50,333 nt of DNA from Candidatus Poribacteria bacterium (GTDB taxonomy: Bacteria; Poribacteria; WGA-4E; UBA9662), in NCBI GenBank assembly GCA_036339735.1, contig JAYZAL010000039.1:1-50333 (forward strand), written 5' to 3'. Under the pieces are notes generated by a model. It was not told the DNA's origin, ran no database searches, and saw only the letters and a program-made list of their open reading frames with translations. A program made the position numbers and the translations under genes. This document shows, in pieces, positions 25,891 to 50,333 of this stretch. Each line of letters opens with the position of its first letter. Position 1 is the stretch's first letter.

Positions 25891-28680
25891 TTAATTTATC
25901 ACTTGGTTCAGTTGTTCAACTAGTTCGTCAGGCGTAAACGGCTTACCTACGTACCCATCCATTCCAGCTAACTTGCACTGTTCCTGTACTTCTTCTATTC
26001 TTGCCGATATCGCCAAAATTGGGACCCTTTTAAGTCCAGACGATTGTTCCAGTTGCCTAATTTGTTCCGTTACCATGTAGCCATTTGCTTCCGGCATCTG
26101 TAAATCCATCAGGATGAGATCATATTGATTTTGTTGGTAACTCGTCAAGCACTCTGTGCCATTAACGGCCTCATCTACCTGACAGCCTAAATTCTCCAAA
26201 AATTTTCGAAAAATAAAGCGATTAACCATATTATCATCAACTACTAGCCCCTTCATGTTTGACAAGTTAATCGATTTTTTCTTTTCCATTTCTGTTTTTT
26301 TCCGTAAACCAACCCTTACTAATGGCAACTCAAACCAGAAATTTGATCCTTCTCCAATTTTACTGTCTACCCCGATCTTTCCACCCATGCCTATAACAAA
26401 CTTCTTACTAATGCTTAAACCTAAACCCGTTCCCCCGTAACTACGACCGATCTCTGGACTTGCCTGATTAAATGACTCAAATATATTCGCTTTTTGATCT
26501 GTTGGAATGCCAATTCCTGTATCTATGATTTCTACTCTAATTCCAAGCTTAGTGGTTTTAAGTAATAACTTCACTTCACCAACCATCGTGAATTTTATTG
26601 CATTAGCAACTAAATTGATTACCACTTGTTTGATTTTTTGCCGATCACCCAACCACTCACCACACATCGTAGGTGGGTAATCTAGATTTAATTGGATTTT
26701 TTTCTGCTCAGATAAAGGAAGTAAGATTTGTCGAACTTGTTTAAAGATATCAACTAAATCAAATGGTTCTTGGTGATGTACGATTCTACCATCTTCTATC
26801 TCGGCAAACTGAAGGATCTCATTAACAACCGTTAGTAGGTATTGTCCAGAATTTTTTGCTCTATTAATATGACTCCTATGCTCAGAATTTAACTGTTCGG
26901 TATCAATTAAATTTAGAGAGCCAATTATCCCATTCATTGGTGTTTTGATTTCGTGGCTTACTTGGGATAAGAAGTCCTTTTTGATCTGAATTTCCTTCTT
27001 TGCATTTTGTTTTAGAAGTTCTAATTGTTCAACATGTTCTTGGTAAGTCAATACTTTGCCGAAATCAGTCACGGTATCACGTCTGACATTCTTATCCAAA
27101 TTAAGCGTTTCTAATTTTTGTAGCTCTAGAATCTCTGATGGTATCTCTGTTAAACAATTATGACTCAGATCAAGTGATACTAACCTCTTTAAACTGCCTA
27201 ATTCAGGTGGAATTTGATAGATTAAGTTTTTGCTCAGGTCTAATTCCGCCAACAGATTCAATTGGCTCAATTCGATCGGCAATTGCCCGAGTGCGTTCCC
27301 ATCCAAGCGTAATTTTTCCAGTTTAATTAAATCTCTAATAGTCTCTGGTAAAAATTTTATTTGATTATCGCTCAAATAAAGTTGTCGTAAATTTGGTAAT
27401 CTATTTACTTCAGTAGGAAATTTCTGTAATCGATTCTGGTTCAAATTGAGAGATTGCAGTTTGAATAGCTTATTTATCTCAGCTGGAATATCTGTCAAAT
27501 TGTTATTTTTCAGATTTAGGTCATGAAGACTTTTCAGATTTCCAATCATACTGGGTAAAAATTCTATTAAGTTCGATTCTAAATTTAAGACTTTCAAATT
27601 GGTTGTTTTGTTCAATATCTGCGGAAAGGTTCCGACTTGGTTGAACCCTAAGTGGAGTGTGCTCAGACTAATCAGTTGACCAATCTCAGCCGGAATTAGT
27701 TTGATCTCGTTCCACTCTAAATGGAATCTAGTCAGACGTGTCAATTGTCCAATCTCAGCTGGAATTACCTCAATCTTGTTGAATCCCAAATGGAGTTCAG
27801 TCAAATTGATCAGTTGACCAATCTCAGCCGGAATTAGCTTGATCTGGTTCCACCCTAAATGAAGTCCAGATAGATTGGTCAGTTGACCAATCTCAGCCGG
27901 AATTACCTCGATCTCGTTCGATGCTAAACCAAGCCTAGACAAATTGGTCAGTTGACCAATCTCAGTTGGAATTACCTCAATCTTGTTCGAGGCTAAACTA
28001 AGTCTAGACAGATTACTCAGTTGCCCTATCTCAGCTGAAATCACCTTAATCTGGTTATACCCTAAATGAAGTTCAATTAAATTAGCCAACTGAAAAATCT
28101 CGGGTGGAATGATCTGGATGTGATTTCCTACCAAATTCAGTATGACTAAACTGGACAGTTGATCAACTTCGGGCGGAATAATATTGATCTGGTTATATAC
28201 TAAATGGAGTGCGGTTAGGTTAGTCAGTTGCGCAATTTCAGCCGGAATCACCTCAATTCGGTTGGCCCCTAAGTGGAGTGTGCTCAGACCAATCAGTTGC
28301 CCAATCTCGGGCGGAATCACCTCGATTTGGTTGGATCCCAAGTGGAGTGCGGTTAGGTTAGCCAGTTGCGCAATTTCAGCCGGAATTACTTCAATATGGT
28401 TCGATGCTAAACCAAGTCTGGTGAGATTAGCCAGTTGCCCAATCTCGGGCGGAATCACCTCGATTTGGTTGGATCTCAAATGGAGTGTGCGCAGATTAGT
28501 CAGTTGGCCAATCTCAGGTGGAATCACTTCAATTTGGTTGGATCCCAAATGGAGTTCAGTTAAATTAGTCAGTAGGCTAATCTCAGGGAGAATTTCATGC
28601 AAACCTTGATTACTCAAATCAAGAACTTGAACTTTATCCCTTTGTTTAATAGACTCCGATAAGTCGGTATAGGTTTTCAC
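25891..28680 (-). CDS. Hybrid sensor kinase: N-terminal leucine-rich repeats + HisKA + HATPase + receiver
   Basis: About 22-23 LRRs of 23 aa; H-box VSHEIKTPMNG, N-box NLVANAIKFT, DTGIGI, GGTGLGL; receiver VVDD/LMDLQMP/KPF. Confidence 0.92.
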   Translation of the reverse strand: MKTYTDLSESIKQRDKVQVLDLSNQGLHEILPEISLLTNLTELHLGSNQIEVIPPEIGQLTNLRTLHLRSNQIEVIPPEIGQLANLTRLGLASNHIEVIPAEIAQLANLTALHLGSNQIEVIPPEIGQLIGLSTLHLGANRIEVIPAEIAQLTNLTALHLVYNQINIIPPEVDQLSSLVILNLVGNHIQIIPPEIFQLANLIELHLGYNQIKVISAEIGQLSNLSRLSLASNKIEVIPTEIGQLTNLSRLGLASNEIEVIPAEIGQLTNLSGLHLGWNQIKLIPAEIGQLINLTELHLGFNKIEVIPAEIGQLTRLTRFHLEWNEIKLIPAEIGQLISLSTLHLGFNQVGTFPQILNKTTNLKVLNLESNLIEFLPSMIGNLKSLHDLNLKNNNLTDIPAEINKLFKLQSLNLNQNRLQKFPTEVNRLPNLRQLYLSDNQIKFLPETIRDLIKLEKLRLDGNALGQLPIELSQLNLLAELDLSKNLIYQIPPELGSLKRLVSLDLSHNCLTEIPSEILELQKLETLNLDKNVRRDTVTDFGKVLTYQEHVEQLELLKQNAKKEIQIKKDFLSQVSHEIKTPMNGIIGSLNLIDTEQLNSEHRSHINRAKNSGQYLLTVVNEILQFAEIEDGRIVHHQEPFDLVDIFKQVRQILLPLSEQKKIQLNLDYPPTMCGEWLGDRQKIKQVVINLVANAIKFTMVGEVKLLLKTTKLGIRVEIIDTGIGIPTDQKANIFESFNQASPEIGRSYGGTGLGLSISKKFVIGMGGKIGVDSKIGEGSNFWFELPLVRVGLRKKTEMEKKKSINLSNMKGLVVDDNMVNRFIFRKFLENLGCQVDEAVNGTECLTSYQQNQYDLILMDLQMPEANGYMVTEQIRQLEQSSGLKRVPILAISARIEEVQEQCKLAGMDGYVGKPFTPDELVEQLNQVIN
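27089..28635 (-). repeat. 69-bp tandem coding repeats (LRR array)
   Basis: Recurrent cagttgaccaatctcagccggaatta-type units at a 69-nt period, most similar between ~27640 and 28570. Confidence 0.9.
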
Positions 28681-36757: not shown

Positions 36758-38965
36758 TTATTCAGGTTCGTGGCTTCTTCTTACATGGTACATACGAAAC
36801 GTACCGTAGTTTTTGGCTAATTGTAACAATCCAACATAATCACAAGTTATATCATCGATATTATTAGCGACAATTAAAGAAGCAAAATGCTCGCTGGCAT
36901 AGACTTGACCTGGTGGTGTAATAGGTTCAATACGAGCAGCTCGGCTCACATGAGAACCAGAAAAATTAAGCTGTTTAATCATTGGGTCTGTGAACCTATA
37001 TACTGGACCTGTGTGAAGTGCAATACGCAGATTAATGTCCGGTGGTAGCCCTCGCTGAGCCCAATCCGTATCACGGATTAGATCTCTCTGCTTCAGCGCA
37101 AACTTTGCTGCGTCTTCTACTGAAGCAAATACAAAATAGAAAGCATCACCCCACGTATTTCTGGTCAATGGCTGGTAGGGATATTTCTCCATTTCCTCAA
37201 CTATATAACCAAGAAACTCTTGGATAAAATGTGCAACTTCCATTTCGGATAATTTACTATATCCAACTACATCTGCAAAAAACATAACTCGTATTTCATG
37301 CGAAAAATGAGAGTCTGCTTCCGAAATAGAAACACTTTCATGTTGTTTATATTTATTAGCTGGCACATCTATAATCTCGATGTCGCGTCCCAAATTTTTC
37401 CATCTATTAATCACTTCTGGGGTCTCACCTAATTTCCCTGGCTCTTGACCATCCCATACTGCGAGAGAAACAAGTGACGTGTCGTATTCTTGCGCCCTTA
37501 ATATTGCAGTTCCATCTACAATTAGGCTGGTAAATTCTAGAAGGACACGATTATCTTTAGCCGGATAATCATTAGCCATGATTACTCGACCAGCTTGCTT
37601 TAAGATGCTTTCAAATCGATTCTTCCAGTTTGAATTTGGGTCTACATCGACACTATCTTTAACGAATTGTTCTATCTCATAAGGAAGTATTATGTCAACT
37701 TCGCCGCCGCGTTCTATCATAGCTTCTAAGAACAAAATATCAGAGCCTGCAGCAGCTGTAGAAATCCCAATATCCGCGTTTAATTGATTTAGCTTGTTAG
37801 TAATTCGTTCTTTGATCTCCGATTCCAAATGAGTAGGGAAGCGGGAGCCTGATTGCCCACTTGGAAGTACTGGGTGTCCAGTGAAAACAACAATCTTAGG
37901 TAAAGCAAAACAATCATCTAACCACTGAGGTTCTTTTCCTAGTGCTTCTAGTAATAGTCGTGCATTACGCCTAGTTGAGTGTAAGCTTGCAAAGTTTCCC
38001 TTTCCAATTTCACCCGCAGAACTATAATATTCTCGAGCTTGCTCTGGTTGCCCCAGAATAAGCAAGACCTCGCCTAATGTTGCCTGTGTCCAGTAATCTT
38101 GTTCTGATTCTTTGCTCTGCTCCAGACTGAGCTGATAAACGTGGCTACCAATTTGGTGTGCTATGTCTAGGTTGCCTTTGATCAATGCCAGTGTGGCAGC
38201 ATTGATGCCAGTGTAACTGCTACCAGTGTTTTTATAAGAGGTATAGTAAGCTTGAAATGCGTGTTCTAGTTGCGATAGTTTTTCTCGACTACCGCTTTCC
38301 TTTTCCCATAAATCTTTGTGCGTTCTACCGAGTAAACCAAGGGTGTCATCATCTTGGTGACCTTCGCTTTGTAATTCACGTGCTATTTGGTTCGCTTTGT
38401 AAGGAGAACCACCTCGAGCAAGCGCCAGGCCCAGCAATTGTCTCAGTCGTAAATCATTACTCCAAACCTCAAGTCCTTCCGAAATAACATCAAAAGCTAA
38501 CAAAGGTTCTCCGATGCCTAGAATTCGATGTCCTAGATGACGATAAATTTCTGGGACGTTTCTCCAATTGTTTGAAGATCTACCACGCCAAATGTCGCTT
38601 AAATCGCGAAGATTTAAACTTTTATCTTCCAGACGATCAAGAATGTTTCTAACTTCATCTTGTACTCGCACTTGCCCTTCAACTGGTGGAATAATACGGT
38701 AGCCTAGATGTAAGATAGTTTTGATAGCTTCCATTGATGTGTTTCGATCATACTCTTTTTCAGACTCAGGGAGTTGATCATAGCTTACCAAGCAAGGATG
38801 AGTCATTATTTTATCATCACGCTCAGGACCAAGGGTCCAACCGTCTTTTATTCTTTGTTGGGCCCATATTTCATGGGTGTTTTCCGATAGTAATTCTGTT
38901 AAATCAGCTAATTCTTCTGGTAATTCTACATCAGAAGTGTCTATAGGATTCGGGGTATAACTCAT
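36758..38965 (-). CDS. RyR domain + TPR-like (TRAF-binding/TPR-S type) + SLOG-like domain + class III nucleotidyl cyclase
   Basis: RyR: YTPNPID..ENTHEIWAQQRIKDGW..HPCLVSYDQLPESEKEYDR; TPR: GLLGRTHKDLW, YTGINAATL, DYWTQATLGE; SLOG-like: FTGH, AAAGSDILF, ILPY, VWDG; cyclase: FADVVGYS, TWGD, RIALHTGPV, AARIE. Confidence 0.82.
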   Translation of the reverse strand: MSYTPNPIDTSDVELPEELADLTELLSENTHEIWAQQRIKDGWTLGPERDDKIMTHPCLVSYDQLPESEKEYDRNTSMEAIKTILHLGYRIIPPVEGQVRVQDEVRNILDRLEDKSLNLRDLSDIWRGRSSNNWRNVPEIYRHLGHRILGIGEPLLAFDVISEGLEVWSNDLRLRQLLGLALARGGSPYKANQIARELQSEGHQDDDTLGLLGRTHKDLWEKESGSREKLSQLEHAFQAYYTSYKNTGSSYTGINAATLALIKGNLDIAHQIGSHVYQLSLEQSKESEQDYWTQATLGEVLLILGQPEQAREYYSSAGEIGKGNFASLHSTRRNARLLLEALGKEPQWLDDCFALPKIVVFTGHPVLPSGQSGSRFPTHLESEIKERITNKLNQLNADIGISTAAAGSDILFLEAMIERGGEVDIILPYEIEQFVKDSVDVDPNSNWKNRFESILKQAGRVIMANDYPAKDNRVLLEFTSLIVDGTAILRAQEYDTSLVSLAVWDGQEPGKLGETPEVINRWKNLGRDIEIIDVPANKYKQHESVSISEADSHFSHEIRVMFFADVVGYSKLSEMEVAHFIQEFLGYIVEEMEKYPYQPLTRNTWGDAFYFVFASVEDAAKFALKQRDLIRDTDWAQRGLPPDINLRIALHTGPVYRFTDPMIKQLNFSGSHVSRAARIEPITPPGQVYASEHFASLIVANNIDDITCDYVGLLQLAKNYGTFRMYHVRRSHEPE

Positions 38966-39351
38966 ATAGAATCCTTTACCTTCTGGGTGTTTCCTCAGGG
39001 AAACGAGGCATTTTCAGCATAATTTTTCCTTTCTATCTCAGCTTCCAAATCACATAGACTATAGCAAGACTAGTTGGGTTTATCAGGATAACTTACTAAG
39101 AGAGAAACCTTCCGCTAACTACATTAACTTTACAGATCTAGAACGCTGATACACAAGAAATCGACTCAAAAATATTGTAATCTCGTTAAAGCAGACTCAA
39201 TATTTATTGATTAAAAAAAGATGACTCCGAAAACAATCATTTACTCAAAACATATGAGTTGATATATTGGAGTTAGTAGTAGAAAATTTAATTTCCTAAA
39301 CTACAGCTCATGTAAATCTTCTATCTGATAAATTATCATTTGGAGTCTGAT

Positions 39352-40788
39352 ATGTTGCGACCACCTCAATCTTCCTTACTAACTGATAACAACCTCGCCT
39401 TATTTTTAGACTATTATCAGCTAAGCATGGGACAAGCCGATTTTAAACGTAAAAACAATTCTATCTGTACAGAAAATTATTTTATTCGTAAGATTCCACA
39501 AGGCAAATACTTAATTGTTGCAGGGCTGGAGCAAGTAATACATTATGTTCTAAACCTAAAATTTACCGATGCAGATTTGGATTGGTTACAAAGCACTGAT
39601 CCTGGAGTAGAATTGGAATCTGATTTCATTGATTATTTGCGCAATTTTAAGTTTGATGGCGATATTTATGCTCTACCGGAAGGCTCATTAGCTTTCGCAA
39701 ATGAGCCAATAATTAATGTGACAGGTAAGTCAATTGATGTACAGATATTTGAGACTTATTTGTTAACCATTATGAATTTTCAAACTTTGATTGCCACAAA
39801 AGCCGCTCGCGTCACACATAGTGCACAGGGACGAATTTGCTTCGATTTTGGTGCCCGGCGCGCACATGGTCGTGATGCTGCTATACTAGCTGCCAGAGCA
39901 GCCGTTATCGGTGGTATCAAAGCAACTTCCCTAGTGGTAGCTGCAAAGTATTTCGATGTTCCTTATGTAGGAACAATGGCCCATAAATTTGTTCAAGATA
40001 GTTCTTCTGAACTTCAAGCTTTTCGCGATTATGCACAGGTTTTTCCCGACAATACTATTTTACTAGTAGATACCTATGATACGTTACAGGGGACTAGAAA
40101 TGCCGTTCAAATAGCAAAAGAAATAGAGATGCAAGGGCAACAAATACATGGAATTCGAATTGACAGCGGCGACCTTATTTTTCTTAGTCAATCTGTTCGT
40201 GAAATTTTAGACCAAGCAGGTTTACACAAAGTAAGAATATTTGCTAGTAATGATTTAGACGAGTTCCAAATTGATCGACTCATAAAAGCAAAAGCACCAA
40301 TTGACGGTTTCGGAGTGGGAACTCGTTTAGCAACTGGTGCTGTTCTAAATTCCATTACAGGTGAAGGTGGAGCTTCTTCCATGCCAGGGGTGTATAAACA
40401 TGTCGAACGAGAAGAAAACGGCATAACCATTCCCACTCTCAAAATTAGTTCTGATCCAGGTAAGTCGACGCTCGCAGCCAAGAAACAAGTGTTGAGAATA
40501 TCTAGAAATTCTCAGTATATTAAAGACCAAATTTGTCTTTGGGATGAAGTCTCAGAAGACCACGGATTGCTGATTCCAATCGTCAAAAATGGAGAACTTA
40601 TTTACAATTTCCCTTCGGTACAACAAATTCAGAAATATACAACGGAAGAATTGACCAAACTACCTAATTTTTACAAGACTTTAAGTGAGAATGACGAGGA
40701 TACAAACGATAGCGAATATCCGGTCGGAATCAGTCCTCAGCTAGTAGCATTACAAAAAAAAATAATAAAGGAGAAAACAAAACCTTAA
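39352..40788 (+). CDS. pncB: Nicotinate phosphoribosyltransferase
   Basis: LDYYQLSM, FDFGARRAHG, GTMAH (phospho-His), LLVDTYDT, GIRIDSGDL, ASNDLDE, FGVGT; GGAG RBS before ATG 39352. Confidence 0.93.
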   Translation: MLRPPQSSLLTDNNLALFLDYYQLSMGQADFKRKNNSICTENYFIRKIPQGKYLIVAGLEQVIHYVLNLKFTDADLDWLQSTDPGVELESDFIDYLRNFKFDGDIYALPEGSLAFANEPIINVTGKSIDVQIFETYLLTIMNFQTLIATKAARVTHSAQGRICFDFGARRAHGRDAAILAARAAVIGGIKATSLVVAAKYFDVPYVGTMAHKFVQDSSSELQAFRDYAQVFPDNTILLVDTYDTLQGTRNAVQIAKEIEMQGQQIHGIRIDSGDLIFLSQSVREILDQAGLHKVRIFASNDLDEFQIDRLIKAKAPIDGFGVGTRLATGAVLNSITGEGGASSMPGVYKHVEREENGITIPTLKISSDPGKSTLAAKKQVLRISRNSQYIKDQICLWDEVSEDHGLLIPIVKNGELIYNFPSVQQIQKYTTEELTKLPNFYKTLSENDEDTNDSEYPVGISPQLVALQKKIIKEKTKP

Positions 40789-40805: not shown

Positions 40806-41591
40806 TCAATTAATCAAATCCTTAGCACAGCGAAACCCTTGGCGTTGTCTCAAATACGAAGTCGATTCGGGTTGATCAGAAGCTCGAGCTGATACTCGCA
40901 GGTTATACCAGTCATCGTGCCATGACCCACCCCTTAACACTCGGTATTTTCCATCACGGGGGCCCTGTGGGTTTTTTTTGGGTGAATTCTGATAAAAGTC
41001 GGGCGTATACCAGTCAGCACACCACTCCCAAACATTACCTGACATATCGTATAATCCGTATTTGTTAGGCGCAAAGTAACCAACTGGAGAGGTTTTGTCC
41101 CATGTATCTGCTTGGCTTAATTTTGATCGTTTACGAATCCACAAAATTAATCTTTTTTGGCGTGTATTATCCCATTTACTGTCTCCACTGGGATTTTCGA
41201 AATTGGCTAAGGTACTATCAATTTCATCCCCCCAGGGGTAACGCTTTCCTTCGAGTCCCCCGCGTGCCGCATATTCCCACTCAGCTTCAGTAGGCAATCT
41301 CTTTCCTGCCCACTTGGCATAGTCATTGGCATCATGCCAAGTGATACCAATGATTGGATGATTGTCATATGGAGCAAATTTGCTCACCCAATCAGGTATT
41401 GGCCGAGAATTAGTTTTTTGTACAAATTCTCTGTACTGTCCAATGGAAACCAGATGAGTGTCCATGTAAAAAGCGTCAAGTTCAACAGAGTGAATTGGAA
41501 ACTCATCATGACTTCCTTCCTGAAAACTATCCCCCATCTCAAACATACCGGCTGGAATTAGTGACATATTTTCGTGTACGTAATCCTTCAT
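40806..41591 (-). CDS. Formylglycine-generating enzyme (SUMF1/FGE-sulfatase) domain protein, probably non-catalytic
   Basis: FEMG, RLPTEAEWEYAARGG, YGLYDMSGNVWEW, RVLRGGSW, GFRC; no catalytic Cys pair after RGGSW. Confidence 0.9.
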   Translation of the reverse strand: MKDYVHENMSLIPAGMFEMGDSFQEGSHDEFPIHSVELDAFYMDTHLVSIGQYREFVQKTNSRPIPDWVSKFAPYDNHPIIGITWHDANDYAKWAGKRLPTEAEWEYAARGGLEGKRYPWGDEIDSTLANFENPSGDSKWDNTRQKRLILWIRKRSKLSQADTWDKTSPVGYFAPNKYGLYDMSGNVWEWCADWYTPDFYQNSPKKNPQGPRDGKYRVLRGGSWHDDWYNLRVSARASDQPESTSYLRQRQGFRCAKDLIN

Positions 41592-41794: not shown

Positions 41795-43993
41795 CTAGTA
41801 ATCTAATATGTCCGCCAATTCATCTAGGTTTACCAAAATTTGATCTATTACTTTTTCATCGGAGGTGGAAATAGTACCCAAAGTAGTTGGGGGATGCATA
41901 CGAAAATAAGTATTCCAAGCGGCATGAACATCGACTAATTTCAGTTCATTCTGGCTGTTCCCAGTTTCGTAAGCTTTTGCACCATCTTTCCAAGCTGATA
42001 TAAAAGAAGAACCAAGAGCTCTGATATCAACCGGAATCCACGATTTTCCTTCATTTTGGACGATTAATTTCTTTTCAATGTTAATACTAGAAAGTTGAGT
42101 CATGGAGGTTTCAAACATCAAAAAAATATGATCGCCGAGATCAACTATTTTAGTTCGGATATCCACTGACTCCAGTAATGCTGCATACAATGTTGTCAAT
42201 TCGTCGCAATCTCCAATTGGGTTTTTAGTTGCTAGTATTGATCTCGGATATTTCATCTTTTTGAACGGTCCATCAACATCAATATACCAAAGGTCAGCGG
42301 CGCTCAGTAAGCTTTGCGTATAACTGGCTGTTTCATCGATAACATATCCTTGTCCATATATCGATTGAAACGGGACATTTGCATCTGGGCGATATTGAAT
42401 ACCTAATGAATTCAAGGCTTCGTAGATTTTCATCGCAGTAACTAAATTAGTAAACTGTTTTACGTGGTTATCTTTTACCATAATTTGAGATGCAGACAAG
42501 GCAAATGACTTGGTAATTGGATCAGCTGGATCAATAAATGCTACCATTGGATCCAATTTTTCACGATAAGCTACTTTTCCCATTTGTCTTAAAACAATAG
42601 GTCGACGCTGACGAATCTCGCGAGTTCGCCCCAAGTATTTGTAGTTAATCAAAATTTCGGCTTCGGTACGAATATCTTGATCCAATTTTTCCACATTCTT
42701 ATTAAATTGAAAGGCTAGTGGAATTCTCTTAGTACTCAGATTCGAACCTACTGAACTCAGCAAGATGTTTTTTGCTACGACCAAAGGTTTATCCATATAT
42801 TCTGGTATAAAGGTCGAAACTGAAACTTCTAGTTCTTTTTTAAAGGCTGAAGTCAACACTAACTCGCCGCTTAGTGGGTTTGGTGTTTGATATTGTTGGT
42901 AAAAGGATAGCAAGACATCTCTAAGGATAATTGAATCTACCAAAATTCGCTTAGGATTATAATCAAACCCCAGAATCATTGAGAAACGGTGAGTATCATT
43001 CAAGGTTGGTGAATTCAAATAAGCGTAATCAAATCTCAATCCTCCATACTGAAGTGTACCTCCTACCGATAGACTAATGGGCTCTCGGAATTCTGATTCC
43101 GAACCGACGGGAGTAATCACGCCTAGGGGGGCTTCTATTCCTCCACGAATTGCTAGAATGTTTTGTATAGTTTGTTCAACTCCAAAGTGAAGACTATGAT
43201 CTAAATCGAGAGCTAGTGTAGTTTGGCGCATGGGTTTATACATCATACCAAATCGGAGATTTCGAGATGCTAACTTATCAGTTTCGTTTCGTTTCGAATT
43301 TTCGATATCAACTGCTTCATAATCAAAATTGATTTTAGTATCATTAATATCTTGGCCGAATAACCCAAATGCGAACCAATCGGTGGGCTGGTAGCGTAGA
43401 CCAACGTCAAAACCAAATCCGGTTGCATTACCAATTGGGTGTGTATCCAGTGCACTACTGATAGATACTCTTTTGACATTCAGACCAGCAGAAATTGATT
43501 TCGTGATACCAATTCCGTACGAAACACTGATACGATCGTCTTTAAATTCAAGTTCATCATCTCCAAAACGAAGTTGTATCCAATCCATACCAATCGCATG
43601 CTGGTCTGTAATTGGAAAAATGTAACTGAGATAATTTTGCTGTAGGCCTTCAATTCCATATAGATTAGTCATCATCCCACTGATAGTCTGCTGTCCAACG
43701 TTGACTAAACCAGCAGGATTCCAAGCAATAGCATTAGCGTCATCTGCAATCGCTGTAAAGGAAGAACCCATACCAAGTGGACGGACACCGACCGGCATTT
43801 GATTATTTGCTCTGAGAATTAGGAATTCTCCTACAATCAGATTTAGGCAAATTATTATGCAAAAAGATAAAACAGCAATTGTACTAAACGAAAAATTTAA
43901 CGAACTTCCAATTGGACAAACCCTACTAAATATAGGTAAATGTATGTACAATTTGAGAAAATTCTTAACTTGATTTGATACTGATTTACTCAT
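41795..43993 (-). CDS. PorV/FadL-like outer-membrane beta-barrel fused to a transglutaminase-like domain
   Basis: GVRPLGMGSSFTAIADDANAIAWNPAGL hatch motif, beta strands ending in THRFSMILGF; C-terminal GDCDE..DHIFL..WIPVD (Cys-His-Asp). Confidence 0.72.
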   Translation of the reverse strand: MSKSVSNQVKNFLKLYIHLPIFSRVCPIGSSLNFSFSTIAVLSFCIIICLNLIVGEFLILRANNQMPVGVRPLGMGSSFTAIADDANAIAWNPAGLVNVGQQTISGMMTNLYGIEGLQQNYLSYIFPITDQHAIGMDWIQLRFGDDELEFKDDRISVSYGIGITKSISAGLNVKRVSISSALDTHPIGNATGFGFDVGLRYQPTDWFAFGLFGQDINDTKINFDYEAVDIENSKRNETDKLASRNLRFGMMYKPMRQTTLALDLDHSLHFGVEQTIQNILAIRGGIEAPLGVITPVGSESEFREPISLSVGGTLQYGGLRFDYAYLNSPTLNDTHRFSMILGFDYNPKRILVDSIILRDVLLSFYQQYQTPNPLSGELVLTSAFKKELEVSVSTFIPEYMDKPLVVAKNILLSSVGSNLSTKRIPLAFQFNKNVEKLDQDIRTEAEILINYKYLGRTREIRQRRPIVLRQMGKVAYREKLDPMVAFIDPADPITKSFALSASQIMVKDNHVKQFTNLVTAMKIYEALNSLGIQYRPDANVPFQSIYGQGYVIDETASYTQSLLSAADLWYIDVDGPFKKMKYPRSILATKNPIGDCDELTTLYAALLESVDIRTKIVDLGDHIFLMFETSMTQLSSINIEKKLIVQNEGKSWIPVDIRALGSSFISAWKDGAKAYETGNSQNELKLVDVHAAWNTYFRMHPPTTLGTISTSDEKVIDQILVNLDELADILDY

Positions 43994-46900
43994 TCAGTAA
44001 AAACTCCTGCTTCTCGAAGCTAGTCAACTGACGTGTTGATCTGATTTCAGCTAATCTTTTTAACCCCGAAATATCTATCAATGGGTGAAACCGAATAGTC
44101 TTATCATGACTTACCGTGGCAATGGCTTTCCCGTCTGAACTGTATTTGACATCAGTAATCTCTGCTGAATGCCCATGCAACGTTAGGACAATTTGGCCCG
44201 AAGAAATATCCCAGACTTTTGCAACTTTGTTCCTACTGCATGTAGCAACTTGACTCCCGTCAGGACTGAACGCAATACCTTGAGGCTCTTCTGGCCAAAT
44301 GGCTATAGACCGCATCACTTGCCCTCTTTCAGAGTCCCAAATTTTAATTGTTCCGTCTAGACTAACTGTTCCCATAAGCGAACCATCTTTGTTGAAGGCT
44401 ACTTTTTTAATTTCCATAGAATGACCTGATAAAGACAGTAGTAGCTGACCCGTTTTTGTATCCCAAATTTTGATTTCAGCATCTTGCCCAGCAGTCACTA
44501 TTTTTTTACCATCAGGACTATAACTCAAACTGTAGATTTCACCTTCATGTCCAATCAAAGTGCTTTCTAGCTCTCCGGATTCCAGTTCCCACAAGCTAGC
44601 CACCTGACCCGATACCGCTAAATACTTTCCATCAGGACTAAAAGATAAGCTATAAATTTCTTTTTCTGTTGTCTTAAATTCTTGCCAGACTTCTCCGGTT
44701 ACTACATCCCAAATAATAGCTTTCGAATCTTTACCCCCCGTCGCAACGTAGCGACCATCATAGCTAAATGATGCGGTAAGCAGTGGAACTTCTCCTATTT
44801 TCCCATGAGAAAAGATATGCTTTATCTGCCTAGATTGTGTTTGCCATAGTTTGGCTGTCCCATCAAGACTAGTAGTGACAAATTGCGATTGATCTTGGCT
44901 AAAAGTAATGCATGTGACTGCCGCTTTATGACTCCGCAGGGGAATATTGTCATTACTTGGAGTTACATCCCAAATTTTGACTATTCCATCTTGACCAGCT
45001 GTGGCTAGCCTGCTTCCATTAGCATTAAAGTCGACGCTATGAATTTCTTCCTGATGCCCGAGAAGAGTGAGAAGTTTTCGACCTGATTGAATGTCCCATA
45101 TTTTGGCTGTTTTGTCATGGCTAACCGAAGCGATTTTGTATCCGGAAGGTCCAAATCTAAGATCTGAAATTAACTCAGTGTGTGCATTAATGTTCTGTTT
45201 TAATTGTCCTGTTTTGGCATCCCAAATACTAATCTGGTAGTCTTCACTACTAGCGGCAATCAAACTTGAATCGGGATTAAAAATGACGTTATTAAATACT
45301 TTACCTGCATTGTCAATCGATAATTGCTCTAGCCCTGGGTTGCTAGTCCATACCTTGATGGTACCACTTTGATCAGCAGTGACGATTTTACTACCATCAT
45401 TACTGTAGTCAAGATCATTAACAATGTTCCCTACTAAAAATTTGGCTGATTCTGTACCCGAATCAGTATTCCAAAGTTTGACGTAGTTGCTACCAGAACC
45501 GGTTGTTGCGACCTGTTTAATTTGGGGGTGGTAGACAAGATTTTGAATAGAGTCTTCATGGGCTTGAATCTCTAATCGAATTTGTCCAGATTCAGTATTC
45601 CACAGAATCACTTTTCCGTCAGCTCCGGCAGTTGCAACCGTTTGCCCGTCAGAATCAAAATCAGCTTTAGAAACCTTATCAGTATGGCCTGCTAACAAAG
45701 TCACAGTATTCGATGTGATATTCCAGATTTTGGCTGACTGATCAGCACTAACTGTCACTAGACGCTGAAGATCTTCCATACCTATCAGTGGGCTGTAGGC
45801 TATATTGTGAATTGTGCTGTCGTGGGCTTTTATGGTTCTTCGGATTCGACGTGCATTTACCACTTGGTGTAGTGCATGTTTAGCTTCACGCTTGGCTTCG
45901 TCAACACCGATTATCTGATCTGAGATCACATCTATATTAGCTTTTTCTACCGCGGTCAAGGCTAATCGAATACTAAGCTCAAGATCATTTTCAATGTTTT
46001 GGATTGCCTGTTCGGCTAACCTTCGAGAAAGTGCAATATTTGCCTGTTCTTCAGCTCGCTTCTTTTCAGCTTCAGCTAAATTCTTTTGTTGTTCAGCTAC
46101 ATTGGCAGACTCAACGGCCAACTCACGTTGTGTATCGGCTTCTCTTCTGGCATTTTCAGCTTCTTGGCGACGTTGTTCAGCTACATTGGCAGACTCAACG
46201 GCCAACTCACGTTGTGTGTCAGCTTCCTCTTTGGCTTTTACGGCCGCTTGTCGTTGTATATCGGCTTCTTCTTTAGATTCTACGGCCGCTTGTCGTTGTA
46301 TATCAGCTTCTCTTCTAGCATTTTCAGCTTCTTGACGACGTTGTTCAGCTACATTGGCAGACTCAACTGCTAGCTCACGCTGTGTATCGGCTTCTCTTCT
46401 GGCATTTTCAGCTTCTTGGCGACGTTGTTCAGCTACATTGGCAGACTCAACGGCCAACTCACGTTGTGTGTCAGCTTCTTCTTTGGCTTCCATAGCCGCT
46501 TGTCGTTGTATATCGGCTTCTTCTTTAGCTTCCATGGCCGCTTGTCGTTGTATATCAGCTTCTTCTTTAGATTCTATGGCCGATTGTCGTTGCTGCTTGG
46601 CAATAGAAGCTGATTGTTCAGCAACTAATTTTTGGGACACTGCTTCTTGTCGCTGAATTAGCGCAAAAATAGTCATACCGATGATTAAGGCTGCTACACT
46701 AGCTAGACCACCTATCATCTGTTGAAACCGTGTCTTTGCTACTCGGCTAGCTTGAACATAGGTTTGTTGTAGTGCTGTGGGAGCAGGATGAAGTTCTGTT
46801 TCGATTGCATCACCAACCCAACGCCCTGCAGATCTTAGATCCCTTCCTCTCAGCAAGGAACTGTTGTCCCGACCATTATCATCCCATTCAGTTGCACGAA

Positions 46901-47327
46901 GATGTAGTCTCGTGTGCTGCTTGACGTGCTCCAAATCGGTTTGAAGAGCTTCGACTAAAATTTGAAAACTTGCCTCGAAATCATCTTCATCTTCTCTCAT
47001 GTAGACCCAATTAGCTGCAGCTAATCGTTCGTGCATATCTTCGGGTTCTACAAATCTCCAAACAACAGGAATAATACGTTTCCCGCCTTCCATAGCGTGG
47101 ACAACTTCTTTTTCGCATTCAGGAGAAGCTATCGAATCCGGACTAATCACTATCAGAAAGGAATCAGCATTATTGATTCCTTTGTATATTTCATCTAACC
47201 ATTCTGAGGCTGGGGGGATATCTTTCCAATCGACCCAAGTCGAAAATCCACTTTCAATCAGCTTATCATGTAACCCTTCACAAAAATCTTTGTCTCTTCG
47301 AGAATAGGAAAGCATTAGGTCAGCCAT
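43986..47327 (-). CDS. TIR domain + single TM helix + long coiled coil + about 14 WD40 repeats
   Basis: TIR: LSYSRRD, WVDW, FLIVISPDSIASPECEKEV; TM MIGGLASVAALIIGMTIFALI; 14-aa repeats; GH..WD repeats; GGAG RBS. Confidence 0.92.
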   Translation of the reverse strand: MADLMLSYSRRDKDFCEGLHDKLIESGFSTWVDWKDIPPASEWLDEIYKGINNADSFLIVISPDSIASPECEKEVVHAMEGGKRIIPVVWRFVEPEDMHERLAAANWVYMREDEDDFEASFQILVEALQTDLEHVKQHTRLHLRATEWDDNGRDNSSLLRGRDLRSAGRWVGDAIETELHPAPTALQQTYVQASRVAKTRFQQMIGGLASVAALIIGMTIFALIQRQEAVSQKLVAEQSASIAKQQRQSAIESKEEADIQRQAAMEAKEEADIQRQAAMEAKEEADTQRELAVESANVAEQRRQEAENARREADTQRELAVESANVAEQRRQEAENARREADIQRQAAVESKEEADIQRQAAVKAKEEADTQRELAVESANVAEQRRQEAENARREADTQRELAVESANVAEQQKNLAEAEKKRAEEQANIALSRRLAEQAIQNIENDLELSIRLALTAVEKANIDVISDQIIGVDEAKREAKHALHQVVNARRIRRTIKAHDSTIHNIAYSPLIGMEDLQRLVTVSADQSAKIWNITSNTVTLLAGHTDKVSKADFDSDGQTVATAGADGKVILWNTESGQIRLEIQAHEDSIQNLVYHPQIKQVATTGSGSNYVKLWNTDSGTESAKFLVGNIVNDLDYSNDGSKIVTADQSGTIKVWTSNPGLEQLSIDNAGKVFNNVIFNPDSSLIAASSEDYQISIWDAKTGQLKQNINAHTELISDLRFGPSGYKIASVSHDKTAKIWDIQSGRKLLTLLGHQEEIHSVDFNANGSRLATAGQDGIVKIWDVTPSNDNIPLRSHKAAVTCITFSQDQSQFVTTSLDGTAKLWQTQSRQIKHIFSHGKIGEVPLLTASFSYDGRYVATGGKDSKAIIWDVVTGEVWQEFKTTEKEIYSLSFSPDGKYLAVSGQVASLWELESGELESTLIGHEGEIYSLSYSPDGKKIVTAGQDAEIKIWDTKTGQLLLSLSGHSMEIKKVAFNKDGSLMGTVSLDGTIKIWDSERGQVMRSIAIWPEEPQGIAFSPDGSQVATCSRNKVAKVWDISSGQIVLTLHGHSAEITDVKYSSDGKAIATVSHDKTIRFHPLIDISGLKRLAEIRSTRQLTSFEKQEFLLNE
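46098..46559 (-). repeat. Eleven 42-bp in-frame units forming a higher-order 252-bp repeat
   Basis: Units A=ADIQRQAAxxxKEE, B=ADTQRELAVESANV, C=AEQRRQEAENARRE in the order AABCBC-AABCB; near-identical DNA. Confidence 0.92.
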
Positions 47328-47355: not shown

Positions 47356-47620
47356 TTAATGGTTCCAAGCTTGACCACTTTGCTTTGGGTCTGGCTACCC
47401 ACAGATACCATTACAATGTATAGGCCAATGATCAACATTTTTCCGTCACCATCCCGTCTATTCCAAGAAACAGATTGTTTCCTTCGATTGAATGTTCTTT
47501 AATCAGTTAGTCAATTGACTAGTTGTCCATCTTCTAACCGGACCTTATGCTAGCATTATTGGCTGGTTGATCCAGCATAAAAGAAATAGTGGTATCAGCG
47601 CGAAAGTTATTTGAATTGGG
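47356..47620 (-). pseudogene. Remnant C-terminal FlgD-Ig-like domain, paralogous to the end of the 48604 gene
   Basis: Manual translation DTTISFMLDQPA..GQLVN*LTD*..VSWNRRDGDGKMLIIGLYIVMVSVGSQTQSKVV/WNH* aligns to RTTISFQLDKAA..GFLVSWLAEQ..LPWNGRDYNGNPVATGLYIVTVAVGSVTQNKIVNVWNQ*. Confidence 0.8.
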
Positions 47621-47804: not shown

Positions 47805-48347
47805 TCAAATGATCTGGACACCTGCTTTCTTCATTTCGATCATTGCATTTCTACCGTCGTTTGGATCTAAGTTTACTGCTCGAATAGCTTCTTGGTGAAC
47901 GACTACTTTGAATCCCTGATTAATAGCATCAAGGGCTGACGCTTTCACACAATAGTCTGTCGCCAATCCAACTATTGTTAATTCTTTGACTGCTTTCTGT
48001 TTTAGCCACTGAGCTAGGTTTATATTAGTGGCTTCGAACGCTGAATAGCCATCATCTTGGTTGTCCGTGCCTTTATATAAAATTTGATCGACCGAATCTA
48101 AATTTAATTGCGGATGAAAATCAGCACCAGGCGAATCGGCGACACAATGAACAGGCCAATGATCAAAGTGAATCGTTTCATCAGGGTGCCAGTCTTTACT
48201 AGCACAAACTATATCGAACTGATTAATTAACTGGTTAATAAATGGTACTACCTGATCTCCCTCTGGTACCGCTAAGGCACCACCAGGACAAAAATCGTTT
48301 TGTACATCAACGATTAGAAGTGCTTTGGTAATAGAAAGATTTTTCAT
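47805..48347 (-). CDS. pncA: Nicotinamidase/pyrazinamidase
   Basis: IVDVQNDFCPGGAL, KDWH, WPVHCV, KGT, YSAF, GLATDYCV; catalytic D/K/C and metal ligands present. Confidence 0.93.
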   Translation of the reverse strand: MKNLSITKALLIVDVQNDFCPGGALAVPEGDQVVPFINQLINQFDIVCASKDWHPDETIHFDHWPVHCVADSPGADFHPQLNLDSVDQILYKGTDNQDDGYSAFEATNINLAQWLKQKAVKELTIVGLATDYCVKASALDAINQGFKVVVHQEAIRAVNLDPNDGRNAMIEMKKAGVQII

Positions 48348-48603: not shown

Positions 48604-50333
48604 TTACTGATTCCATACGTTGACTATCTTATTCTGGGTCACACTACCGACTGCTACTGTGACTATGTACAAGCCGGTAGCAACCGGATTTCCATTATAG
48701 TCACGACCATTCCAAGGTAGAGCAACCTTTCCTGCAGGAAATAACTCTTGTTCTGCAAGCCAGCTGACAAGAAATCCGCTCATGTCATAGACTTTGATGC
48801 TGGCAAGTGCAGCTTTGTCTAATTGGAAAGAAATAGTAGTCCTAGTGTAGGGTGCTAGGCGACCTATCGGTGAAAACACCCTAGGTTGACACGTTAGGCT
48901 ATTTTTCAGGATGGCAGCTGAACTATCAGCCTGATTCGGTGTCATCTCCATAACCCCATACTGGCCTAGTTGATGAATTGCCGTACTAACAGTCTTTTTC
49001 TCGGTATCAACTGCTCCTCCAATCATCTGCCACTGTTTGGTATTTTCTACCAGTTGGAAAATGATTGGCTTATAGCCCGGGGTCAAGCTCTCATTACTAT
49101 AGGATATAGTTAGAGTGGCCGGTTTAATTTTGTTTAACTTTTTCAGGTCTGACTCCAACAAATATGATAGATTTAGCGGCCTCCAACTTCTACCTAATGG
49201 CCAGTCAATAGTCGAGGAAGGAACATGGTTAATGGTTACGATAGTGTTCTGCTCTAGGCTATTAGGTGGCAAATATAGATTTACTCTACCATCAGATGAC
49301 TGTAAATCTCCTCCTCTAGACTTCTCTGTCAGCGATGTTATTGAGACTTGGACCGTTGTTTCCCTGCGCTGATTTACCTGATCTTCCACTGTTAGACGGA
49401 AGCTGTAAATACCACGCCTCTTACCTGCTAGCCATTGTAGAATTTCACCATCCTCCACCGGCGACATAATCGGTCTGGGAGTAGCTTTAAGCCAATTTGT
49501 TGGTGCATTACCTTCTCCAAAATCAATCCAATATGATTTGAAGTTAGGGTCAGTAGCTGTACCGAATAGAGTCAAGACTTGACTTATCTGTTCGTTATCG
49601 AGCGGCCTACTAATCTTTGCCTGTGGTGGTGTATTATCTACTGTTACTGCGCGTATAAGTTCAGTCGGAGGTTGTCCGCTCTGATCAGTTGCAACTAATT
49701 TTATTTCGTAAACTCCGTCTGGAAGGGATGATGTATCCCACTCGGCCAGCCGATTATCTTCCATTATTCCTTGAATAATGGATAATGAATGCCAATCAGA
49801 TGACAATGGCCGAAATAATAATTCAACCTGATCTAAATTGACATCAGTTACGATACCTGTTATACCAATAATCTGACTGACAACTTGGTTTTGAGTGGGC
49901 GACTGTAATGTGACCTGGGGAGGCGTATTATCAATGGTAATAGTACGACGAGCAATAGAAACTTGTCCTGACTTGTCGTCCACGGTTAGGCGCAGTGAGT
50001 AAATTCCATCATCCGTTATGGTTGTAGAAAATTGCCTTAGAATATCAGATTTAACTGGAGTATTACTAATGCCTCCAATTGATTGCCAATTATCTTCTCT
50101 CGGGTCTATACCAGGCCCTAATTCCAGTAGAAAAGATTTGAAGTGATCGTCAATGGCTGTTCCCAAAACTTTCAGATTGCCACTAACAACAGCGTCTGAC
50201 ACCAAAAGGTCGATTTCGGCTTTTGGTGGTGTATTATCTGCTATAATTCGTCTCTTCACCACGACCTGGTCATTTGTAAAATCCTCCACTATTAACTTCA
50301 AAGTGTACTGACCTTCTAATCCCGTAGCATCCC
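48604..50333 (-). CDS. Large surface protein with tandem bacterial Ig-like repeats and a C-terminal FlgD-Ig-like domain (5' end outside the window)
   Basis: Repeated DNTPP / WDTSSLPDGVY / YSLRLTVDD units; TTISFQL..WNGRD..GLYIV tail; the frame stays open to the window edge (WDATGLEGQYTLKL). Confidence 0.82.
   Translation of the reverse strand, partial: DATGLEGQYTLKLIVEDFTNDQVVVKRRIIADNTPPKAEIDLLVSDAVVSGNLKVLGTAIDDHFKSFLLELGPGIDPREDNWQSIGGISNTPVKSDILRQFSTTITDDGIYSLRLTVDDKSGQVSIARRTITIDNTPPQVTLQSPTQNQVVSQIIGITGIVTDVNLDQVELLFRPLSSDWHSLSIIQGIMEDNRLAEWDTSSLPDGVYEIKLVATDQSGQPPTELIRAVTVDNTPPQAKISRPLDNEQISQVLTLFGTATDPNFKSYWIDFGEGNAPTNWLKATPRPIMSPVEDGEILQWLAGKRRGIYSFRLTVEDQVNQRRETTVQVSITSLTEKSRGGDLQSSDGRVNLYLPPNSLEQNTIVTINHVPSSTIDWPLGRSWRPLNLSYLLESDLKKLNKIKPATLTISYSNESLTPGYKPIIFQLVENTKQWQMIGGAVDTEKKTVSTAIHQLGQYGVMEMTPNQADSSAAILKNSLTCQPRVFSPIGRLAPYTRTTISFQLDKAALASIKVYDMSGFLVSWLAEQELFPAGKVALPWNGRDYNGNPVATGLYIVTVAVGSVTQNKIVNVWNQ

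What the first reader, a model, noticed from the sequence alone, without database searches (positions are those of the whole stretch)
41795..47327. Toll-like receptor architecture coupled to an outer-membrane barrel: possible trans-envelope sensor
Seen: TIR, a helical linker, one TM helix, roughly 250 aa of coiled coil and about 14 WD40 repeats, with no Walker A/STAND NTPase between TIR and TM. Its stop overlaps the start of the PorV-like gene by 8 bp (ATGAGTAA). Established: many related bacterial WD40 proteins carry a STAND NTPase, and a coiled coil rises about 0.15 nm per residue. Inference: a cytoplasmic TIR is joined through a 30-40 nm stalk, enough to cross a periplasm, to a double propeller that could contact the co-translated OM protein and report envelope attack by clustering the TIRs.
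Basis: partly seen in the sequence, partly recalled or inferred. Interest (0 to 1): 0.72.

Follow-up and report, generated by a model that had tools for sequence, protein, structure and literature searches.

The report
TIR receptor paired with PorV-like barrel
A marine Poribacteria lineage keeps a membrane-spanning protein with an immune-type TIR enzyme inside the cell and a long-stalked propeller outside next to an outer-membrane barrel gene, in a gene module that normally ends in a kinase, which suggests but does not show a signal relay across both membranes.

Summary
In detail: TIR, helical linker, one TM helix, a heptad stalk (209 aa, not 250), 14 WD40 blades, no NTPase, and an 8-bp overlap with a PorV-like barrel–Ig–transglutaminase-like gene.

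An outward-facing propeller is well supported at family level: positive-inside bias, CHASE2 or SH3b in place of WD40, and paired cysteines. The architecture is not special. It is a very large family, also found in Chloroflexota (no outer membrane), and this scan has noted it several times on other DNA.

What is new is the pairing. The barrel is a paralog of the one in a Poribacterial module, cargo → barrel → adaptor → CHASE2 kinase → σ54 activator, which this scan also noted before. In this paralog the adaptor and kinase are missing and the TIR gene sits between cargo and barrel. The pair occurs in 3 of 176 Poribacteria genomes (three genera, one family), moved as a unit, and has stalks of 111–212 aa against 16–23 aa in unlinked paralogs.

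It is one evolutionary event, and no contact, NADase activity or defence role was shown. Best reading: receptor swap in a trans-envelope relay (about 0.4). Close rival: inherited linkage only (about 0.35).

The parts
46944..47327 (-). TIR domain of P0001 (aa 1-128); Glu74 is the probable catalytic glutamate
   Evidence: Pfam TIR_2 94.8 bits; model matches SARM1 and other TIRs, E 6e-8; E74 invariant in 40 of 40 aligned homologues; its catalytic role is inferred from position
46719..46943 (-). Helical linker (aa 129-203, HTRL...EW...LLRG motif), the constant companion of this TIR; the TIR+linker unit is repeated up to 8 times in some relatives
   Evidence: Helices 132-150, 161-177 and 185 onward; 145 of 148 top-scoring relatives carry 2-8 profile matches; no Pfam match
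46656..46718 (-). Single transmembrane helix (aa 204-224), N-in/C-out signal anchor
   Evidence: KD 2.25; KD at least 2 in 110 of 113 WD40-bearing homologues, net charge more positive on the N side in 101 of 111
46029..46655 (-). Ala-stripe heptad stalk, 209 aa, built of 14- and 28-aa repeats; length varies between strains
   Evidence: Ala at 30 of 30 positions of one heptad register, periods 7.0 and 3.5, no Pro or Gly; DNA tandem repeats of 42, 84 and 252 bp; 111-212 aa in 8 orthologous sequences
45846..46028 (-). Helical cap before the propellers (aa 434-494)
   Evidence: Family consensus LA...LSxLLAxEA; 69-100% identical in orthologues
44079..45845 (-). 14 WD40 blades, two seven-bladed propellers, predicted periplasmic
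   Evidence: Pfam WD40 320 bits; blade spacing; location inferred from topology and family evidence
43986..43993 (-). 8-bp overlap of the TIR stop and the barrel start (ATGAGTAA)
   Evidence: same overlap in L077 and G004 (ATGACTAA), 17-bp gap in G005
42959..43993 (-). P0002 signal peptide (h-region aa 36-54) and PorV/FadL-like 14-stranded outer-membrane barrel (aa 66-345)
   Evidence: NCBIfam PorV_fam 83.7 bits, cut-off 90; Z 25.9, rmsd 2.6, 257 aligned to 6h3i_F, tied with a FadL homologue; 14 strands counted on the model
42584..42958 (-). Ig-like domain of P0002 (aa 346-470), predicted periplasmic
   Evidence: Beta-sandwich in the model; Z 10.4 over 103 residues
41795..42583 (-). Transglutaminase-like domain (C596, H622, D656); His is not conserved in this paralog clade
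   Evidence: Pfam Transglut_core E 0.056; Atlas score 0.92 to a transglutaminase-like cluster; His in 2 of 10 clade members against 22 of 22 canonical copies
47367..47620 (-). Broken remnant of the C-terminal FlgD-Ig/T9SS-type sorting domain of a cargo gene; the gene is intact at this position in L077 (1345 aa) and G005 (1830 aa)
   Evidence: tblastn 58-71% identity, E 9e-18; contigs turn off into the intact gene end at 47368 in 2 of 3 DNA runs
48604..50333 (-). A second secreted Ig-repeat cargo gene with a T9SS-type C-terminal domain (runs off the contig); left boundary of the insertion site
   Evidence: Pfam Big_3_3 and FlgD_ig, TIGR04183 over cut-off; its G004 orthologue is followed directly by the FGE gene and pncB

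Best explanation
P0001 is a type II single-pass inner-membrane receptor: an enzyme-type TIR inside and a double WD40 propeller outside (well supported). In one family of pelagic Poribacteria it was recruited into a paralog of a trans-envelope module. In the usual module a secreted CTD cargo protein and a dedicated PorV-like barrel with a periplasmic Ig/transglutaminase-like arm are encoded with an adaptor, a CHASE2 histidine kinase, a sigma-54 activator and a sigma-70 factor. In this paralog the adaptor and kinase are absent and the TIR receptor takes their place. Proposed steps: (1) the cargo is exported and held on the surface by its barrel (inferred from PorV and PorP biology); (2) a change in the cargo or barrel is passed to the periplasmic arm, now probably a non-catalytic binding surface (inferred); (3) the propellers, lifted 17-31 nm by the stalk, engage that arm and cluster (inferred); (4) clustered TIRs cleave NAD+, either depleting it or making an ADP-ribose-type messenger (inferred from the conserved Glu). 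Shown here: anatomy, family-level topology evidence, gene order, paralogy, co-relocation and stalk lengthening. Not shown: contact, ligand, activity, output.
For: Topology. The same TIR-linker-TM head carries CHASE2 (P0007, L143, L145) or bacterial SH3 (L155, L176) after the helix. 94 of 105 homologues have exactly two Cys in the last 60 aa, 9 have none and 2 have one; 180 of 240 other ectodomain Cys lie within 16 aa of another, against a random mean of 28 and maximum of 48. Module: 17 of 17 loci fetched from two other families show cargo, barrel, adaptor, CHASE2 kinase and response regulator in that order. The TIR-linked barrel is a separate clade (support 100) found in only 3 of 176 genomes, the same three that hold the long-stalk TIR gene, always adjacent. 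A cargo gene or remnant lies directly upstream in G000, L077 and G005. G004 has the empty site (cargo, FGE, pncB) on one contig and the TIR-barrel pair, overlap intact, on another. Stalks are at least 111 aa in 7 of 7 measured clade members, 16-23 aa in 5 of 5 unlinked Poribacterial paralogs, and at least 100 aa in 4 of 55 others. G000 has only one adaptor and one CHASE2 gene, both at the canonical locus. Precedents: cognate cargo-shuttle gene pairs (PMC12618676, abstract), a barrel feeding CHASE2 cyclases (PMC13001267, passages), a T9SS cargo activating a sensor kinase (PMC12152298, abstract).
Against: All linked cases are one clade in both trees, so linkage, long stalk and His loss are one event, not independent observations. 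77 of 79 GTDB loci have no barrel nearby, many of them from Chloroflexota (some loci end at short contigs). Stalk length differs by 84-98 aa between sequences 95-99% identical, which argues against a precise ruler, although contigs break in the repeat so lengths may be mis-assembled. Long stalks also occur in 3 Chloroflexota proteins. The propellers diverge at least as fast as the barrel arm (40-42% against 48-54% for G005), so there is no sign of a conserved interface. The cargo gene is broken in this genome and absent upstream in G004. The window protein lacks the paired cysteines. The single adaptor and kinase could serve both barrels in trans. Neighbours of 43 family loci show no clear defence-island pattern (28 of 140 proteins hit PADLOC, mostly generic enzyme domains, no control).
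Confidence: 0.4

Rival explanations
1. P0001 is a stand-alone surface receptor like the rest of its family. It inserted once between a cargo gene and its barrel and stays there because it shares their transcript. Its propeller senses something else, such as a foreign protein or cell-wall damage, and the long stalk is repeat expansion.
For: 5701 clusters at E at most 1e-30 for the TIR-linker-TM profile and no barrel at 77 of 79 loci. One origin. High family turnover: 10 matches in G004 and 8 in G003, many short or with stops. pncA also entered this region, so it accepts insertions.
Against: The pair kept its overlap through a relocation that separated it from the cargo, FGE and pncB neighbours and across 60% TIR-linker identity. 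Among the 176 genomes neither gene was found without the other. The stalk lengthened only in the linked Poribacterial clade.
Confidence: 0.35
2. The propeller binds the cargo protein, or its sorting domain, while it is in the periplasm. The TIR then reports stalled secretion or loss of the barrel, as PorA does for PorY, and the barrel is only the cargo's shuttle.
For: A cargo gene lies directly upstream in L077 and G005. G000 has a SprA-like gene, two PorU-like genes and 49 FlgD-Ig matches. PorA-PorY precedent (PMC12152298, abstract).
Against: The TIR-barrel pair persists where the cargo is broken (G000) or not adjacent (G004), and the cargo differs between lineages (1345 and 1830 aa).
Confidence: 0.12
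3. The output is regulatory, not suicidal: the TIR makes a nucleotide messenger read by the nearby RyR-TPR-S-(SLOG-like)-cyclase protein (36758-38965), which converts it to cAMP or cGMP.
For: That gene was found in 5 of 176 genomes, all in the same family. It lies 2.8 kb from the barrel here and directly upstream of the TIR gene in G004. Its middle domain resembles YspA/DUF1273 SLOG clusters.
Against: It is on other contigs in G005 and G003. The SLOG call is a lead only: Atlas scores 0.82-0.89, no Pfam or PDB match.
Confidence: 0.08
4. The hydrophobic helix is not a membrane span and the whole protein is a cytoplasmic, NTPase-less derivative of STAND-WD40 sensors.
For: The window protein has no paired cysteines of its own, and no topology predictor or experiment was run.
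Against: Positive-inside bias in 101 of 111 homologues; CHASE2 and SH3b at the same position; all-or-none cysteine pairs in the family; in multi-TIR relatives a hydrophobic helix follows the last unit in 126 of 148 and lies between units in 2.
Confidence: 0.05

Closest known systems
Animal Toll-like receptors (recalled; summarised in PMC9153377, passages)
   Same: One membrane span joining an outside repeat domain to an inside TIR, with no NTPase.
   Different: Reverse orientation (TIR at the N terminus), WD40 instead of LRR, a long stalk, and a TIR that keeps the enzyme-type glutamate. An analogy, not homology of the whole protein.
Bacterial STAND receptors with WD40 sensors (nSTAND1, Apaf-1-like; PMC8195603 and PMC13581612, passages)
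   Same: N-terminal TIR-type effector and C-terminal propeller.
   Different: No P-loop NTPase here, and the sensor is predicted outside the membrane.
PCTM and receptor-like TIR-ParA systems (bioRxiv 10.64898/2026.10.19.760177, section 25 and passages)
   Same: Type II single-TM proteins with a constant cytoplasmic head and variable outside sensors such as bacterial SH3, predicted to detect envelope breach and to act with a TIR.
   Different: There the head is ParA and the active TIR is a separate gene. Here the TIR is the head, and no outer-membrane partner was described in what I read.
T9SS shuttles PorV and PorP/SprF with cognate cargo genes (PMC12618676, abstract)
   Same: 14-strand FadL-like barrel encoded next to a CTD-bearing secreted protein.
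   Different: P0002 carries a 390-aa Ig and transglutaminase-like extension and is paired with an inner-membrane receptor.
NsrA with CHASE2 cyclases CyaD1/CyaD2/CyaK (PMC13001267, passages) and PorA-PorXY (PMC12152298, abstract)
   Same: A signal passes from an outer-membrane barrel or a secreted cargo to an inner-membrane receptor.
   Different: Their receivers are CHASE2 cyclases or a histidine kinase. Here the candidate receiver is a TIR-propeller protein.
Enzymatic TIRs (SARM1, AbTir, ThsB, SPARTA TIR-APAZ)
   Same: TIR fold and invariant glutamate.
   Different: Membrane-anchored, with its own outside sensor; activity untested.

Membership tests
Toll-like receptors | LRR ectodomain | tested here: not met
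   14 WD40 blades; one relative, P0015, has LRRs after the TM helix
Toll-like receptors | Type I orientation, TIR at the C terminus | tested here: not met
   TIR is residues 5-124 and the TM helix 204-224
Toll-like receptors | Single membrane span separating sensor from TIR | tested here: met
   By sequence only:
Toll-like receptors | Ligand-induced TIR clustering | not testable with these tools
   Needs an experiment; tandem TIR-linker units in relatives are only suggestive
STAND/NLR receptors | Central P-loop NTPase | tested here: not met
   No Walker A in P0001; only 75 aa between TIR and TM; no NTPase family in the Pfam scans of the N-terminal pieces
Enzymatic (NADase) TIR domains | TIR fold | tested here: met
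Enzymatic (NADase) TIR domains | Catalytic glutamate | tested here: met
   E74 invariant in 40 of 40, in helix 69-80; equivalence to the catalytic residue is inferred from position
Enzymatic (NADase) TIR domains | NAD+ cleavage | not testable with these tools
   No assay
PorV/PorQ family shuttles | 14-stranded FadL-like barrel with signal peptide | tested here: met
PorV/PorQ family shuttles | Family profile above cut-off | tested here: inconclusive
   83.7 bits against 90
PorV/PorQ family shuttles | Type IX secretion system in the genome | tested here: inconclusive
   SprA-like and PorU-like genes below cut-off; 40 of 49 FlgD-Ig matches above cut-off; motor and ring genes not searched
PorV/PorQ family shuttles | Binds the CTD of a cargo | not testable with these tools
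   Gene order only
Active transglutaminase-like enzymes | Cys-His-Asp/Glu triad | tested here: inconclusive
   All three present in P0002; His missing in 8 of 10 clade members, present in 22 of 22 canonical copies
Poribacterial cargo-barrel-adaptor-CHASE2 module | Cargo gene upstream of a barrel-Ig-transglutaminase gene | tested here: met
   Remnant here, intact in L077 and G005, not adjacent in G004
Poribacterial cargo-barrel-adaptor-CHASE2 module | Adaptor, CHASE2 kinase and sigma-54 activator downstream | tested here: not met
   Not downstream in G000, L077 or G005; the G004 contig ends inside the barrel gene
Receptor-like TIR-ParA / PCTM systems | ParA NTPase as cytoplasmic head | tested here: not met
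   The head is a TIR, with no NTPase motif

The most novel reading that the evidence does not exclude
A one-step innate sensing circuit that spans both membranes of a diderm bacterium: a variable T9SS-type surface protein held by a dedicated PorV-like barrel signals through the barrel's periplasmic pseudo-enzyme arm to a stalked WD40 receptor whose cytoplasmic TIR cleaves NAD+. It would have arisen by swapping a TIR receptor for the CHASE2 kinase in a modular trans-envelope relay, and would be the first identified partner for any member of a family of thousands of TIR-TM-ectodomain receptors.
Probability: 0.25. Interest if true: 0.85.

Novelty: new variant of a known kind. Interest (0 to 1): 0.55.

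Why it matters
Characterised bacterial TIR and STAND sensors detect invaders in the cytoplasm. The TIR-linker-TM-ectodomain family is very large (5701 clusters at E at most 1e-30), and I found no paper describing it in the ten searches made. If the pairing is functional, this locus names a candidate activating partner for one member and makes the family directly testable with two or three genes. It would also show that PorV paralogs with periplasmic arms can act as outer-membrane signal relays with exchangeable inner-membrane readers. If the pairing is only inherited, this is an ordinary member of a family the scan already knows.

Tried and rejected
2. A fixed 30-40 nm ruler: rejected, since stalks are 111-212 aa in orthologous sequences. 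True lengths could not be settled because contigs break in the repeat.
3. The architecture as unique or barrel-dependent: rejected.
4. A recent duplication of the genome's own canonical barrel: rejected, 27% identity and separate clades (quick tree, the careful search did not finish).
5. Linkage outside this family: not found. The metagenome scan returned 2 loci, one near-identical strain (L077) and one weak match. Neighbourhoods of barrel-transglutaminase-TPR relatives and of clade members P0124-P0131 and P0003-P0006 could not be seen.
6. Defence-island context: no clear signal, no control. PADLOC gave only TIR-domain matches for P0001 and none for P0002. A weak match of the transglutaminase-like part to ProA (E 4e-4) was not pursued.
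7. Promoter and terminator scan: 15 promoter-like sites against 21 expected, uninformative.
8. RNA run X20: short pieces on both genes, none across the junction; not evidence of co-transcription.
9. FecR identity of the adaptor's N terminus: no Pfam or PDB support. Its C-terminal half is a transglutaminase-like domain related to P0002 (probability 96%).
10. SLOG identity in the cyclase: lead only.
11. The stalk survey detected the cap in 67 of 206 proteins and in no cyanobacterial one.
12. Literature searches found no description of the NTPase-less TIR-TM-WD40 family or of PorV-transglutaminase fusions. Most subscription papers are not in the library, and the supplements of the 2026 ParA preprint, which list architectures, could not be seen.
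Full report
Observation. Both ORFs are as described. P0001 has TIR_2 at 5-124, one strong hydrophobic segment at 206-224 and no Walker A, and 14 WD40 blades. The stalk is 209 aa with alanine at 30 of 30 positions of one heptad register and no Pro or Gly. It is encoded by 42-, 84- and 252-bp tandem repeats. The 8-bp overlap is real and is bridged in 3 of 3 seawater DNA runs laid. Named records of close relatives are Candidatus Poribacteria, and the runs with a recorded habitat that hold this DNA are marine.

The receptor family. A search with residues 1-240 returned 178 proteins, of which 120 were listed. Of these 113 carry WD40; 110 have a segment of KD at least 2, and in 101 of 111 the N side is more positive than the C side. 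A GTDB scan with two short patterns confirmed 471 of 522 stretches and returned 79 loci, mostly Cyanobacteria and Chloroflexota. The profile finds 5701 clusters at E at most 1e-30. The same head carries CHASE2, bacterial SH3, LRR or CHAT after the helix (7 and 18 hand-picked proteins or pieces). CHASE2 and SH3b are established extracytoplasmic domains (recalled; CHASE2 also in PMC8195603, passages). Cysteines after the helix come in pairs: 94 of 105 proteins have exactly two in the last 60 aa, 9 have none and 2 have one, and 180 of 240 other ectodomain cysteines lie within 16 aa of another against a random mean of 28. This points to disulphides and an outside location, although P0001 itself lacks these pairs. 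Glu74 is invariant in 40 of 40 and the model matches SARM1 and other TIRs. The TIR-linker unit occurs 2-8 times in 145 of the 148 top-scoring relatives examined, with a hydrophobic helix after the last unit in 126. The receptor layout is therefore well supported but common, and it does not need an outer membrane.

The partner. P0002 has a signal peptide, a 14-stranded barrel closest to chain 6h3i_F of the type 9 translocon (PorV, recalled) and tied with FadL, an Ig domain, and a transglutaminase-like domain. The model is modest (mean pLDDT 62). With an even strand count the extension should lie in the periplasm (inference). The genome has 14 barrels of this family, a SprA-like gene, two PorU-like genes and 49 FlgD-Ig matches, consistent with a divergent T9SS. 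In 17 of 17 loci that I fetched from the best hits in two other families, the homologous barrel lies in the order cargo, barrel, adaptor, CHASE2 kinase, response regulator. Pfam on the genome's own copy confirms CHASE2 kinase, sigma-54 activator and sigma-70 factor. The adaptor ends in a transglutaminase-like domain related to P0002. P0002 is not that copy. It belongs to a separate clade in which the catalytic His is present in 2 of 10 sequences, against 22 of 22 canonical ones.

The linkage. Among 176 genomes of the phylum the TIR head was found in 5, all one family, and the barrel paralog in 3: G000, G004 and G005, three genera. In all three the long-stalk TIR gene lies directly upstream of it, with an 8-bp overlap in G000, L077 and G004 and a 17-bp gap in G005. 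G001, G002, G003 and G006 (85-95% complete) gave neither gene. A cargo gene lies directly upstream in G005 and L077. Here it is a broken remnant at 47367-47620, and both alleles appear in 2 of 3 DNA runs. In G004 the site that holds the cassette in G000 is empty (cargo, FGE, pncB) and the pair sits elsewhere, behind the RyR-cyclase gene with no cargo remnant, so the pair moved together. Stalks are at least 111 aa in 7 of 7 measured clade members, 16-23 aa in 5 of 5 unlinked Poribacterial paralogs and at least 100 aa in 4 of 55 others; the cap was detected in only 67 of 206 proteins.

Against. All of this is one clade in both gene trees, hence one event. No barrel lies near 77 of 79 GTDB loci (some are cut by contig ends). 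Stalk length differs by 84-98 aa between near-identical sequences, though assemblies break in the repeat. The propellers are the least conserved part of P0001 apart from the TM helix and tail. The genome's single adaptor and CHASE2 kinase could serve both barrels. Neighbours of 43 family loci show no clear defence signal.

Mechanism. The most likely reading is a receptor swap: the TIR protein reads a cargo-barrel unit that elsewhere reports to a CHASE2 kinase (0.40). Anatomy, gene order, paralogy and co-relocation are shown. Export of the cargo, contact in the periplasm, clustering and NAD+ cleavage are inferred. An inner-to-outer membrane distance of roughly 20-25 nm (recalled for E. coli, unknown for Poribacteria) would be spanned by the shortest stalk (17 nm) plus cap, propellers and the barrel's arm. 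Inherited linkage is nearly as likely (0.35). Sensing of the cargo itself (0.12), a messenger for the neighbouring cyclase (0.08) and a cytoplasmic protein (0.05) follow.

Comparison with what is known. It works like a Toll-like receptor in layout but fails membership on orientation and ectodomain, and it is not a STAND protein. The closest published ideas are the receptor-like TIR-ParA and PCTM systems (bioRxiv 10.64898/2026.10.19.760177; section 25 and passages), cognate T9SS cargo-shuttle pairs (PMC12618676; abstract and outline), PorA-PorXY (PMC12152298; abstract and outline) and NsrA with CHASE2 cyclases (PMC13001267; passages). I also read passages of PMC10907252, PMC8195603, PMC13581612, PMC9153377 and PMC5587647; none described this family or pairing. 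Ten searches found no such description. The library lacks most subscription papers, and the preprint's supplements were not seen. This scan has noted the receptor family and the canonical module on other DNA, but not their combination. I had reconstructed the canonical module before its look-up and the family before its look-up; those notes are not independent support.

Verdict. Observation confirmed, interpretation partly supported. A new variant of a known kind; interest 0.55.

Noticed in passing
window 36758-38965 (-): RyR, TPR-S, possible SLOG-like domain and class III cyclase in one protein; found in 5 of 176 Poribacteria genomes, all one family; directly upstream of the TIR gene in G004, on other contigs in G003 and G005.
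   Followed up: partly
window 47805-48347 (-) and 39340-40788 (+): pncA and pncB (NAD+ salvage) flank the TIR-barrel-FGE cassette here and in L077; not seen around the pair in the stretches fetched from G004 and G005.
   Followed up: partly
window 47367-47620 (-): The cargo slot upstream of the TIR gene is polymorphic in seawater populations: broken remnant here, intact 1345-aa gene in L077, both forms in runs X1 and X3.
   Followed up: partly
P0184-P0331: TIR-linker units are tandemly repeated up to 8 times in single proteins of the family, ahead of one TM helix.
   Followed up: partly
P0015: Three TIR units, one TM helix, a WG repeat and a long LRR ectodomain: the closest match to a Toll-like receptor in reverse orientation.
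   Followed up: no
G003 and G004 (loci L079-L100): Many short or stop-containing copies of the TIR-linker head (8 and 10 matches), suggesting rapid birth and death of this family in pelagic Poribacteria.
   Followed up: partly
window 25891-28680 (-): LRR repeats fused to a histidine kinase and receiver domain; membrane span not examined.
   Followed up: no
window 40806-41591 (-): FGE-sulfatase-like gene without a signal peptide downstream of the barrel; in G004 it follows the cargo gene directly, so it belongs to the insertion site, not to the cassette.
   Followed up: yes
L059 (G000:C19:25000-42000): The genome's canonical barrel, adaptor, CHASE2 kinase, sigma-54 activator and sigma-70 locus lacks the upstream cargo genes seen in other families; in G001 and G002 similar cargo pairs lie elsewhere (L220, L221).
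   Followed up: partly
window 3687-4718, 13212-14003, 18231-19595: Three ankyrin-repeat genes.
   Followed up: no
window 41705: A 20-bp stretch in the barrel-FGE intergenic region is absent in all 3 DNA runs laid.
   Followed up: no
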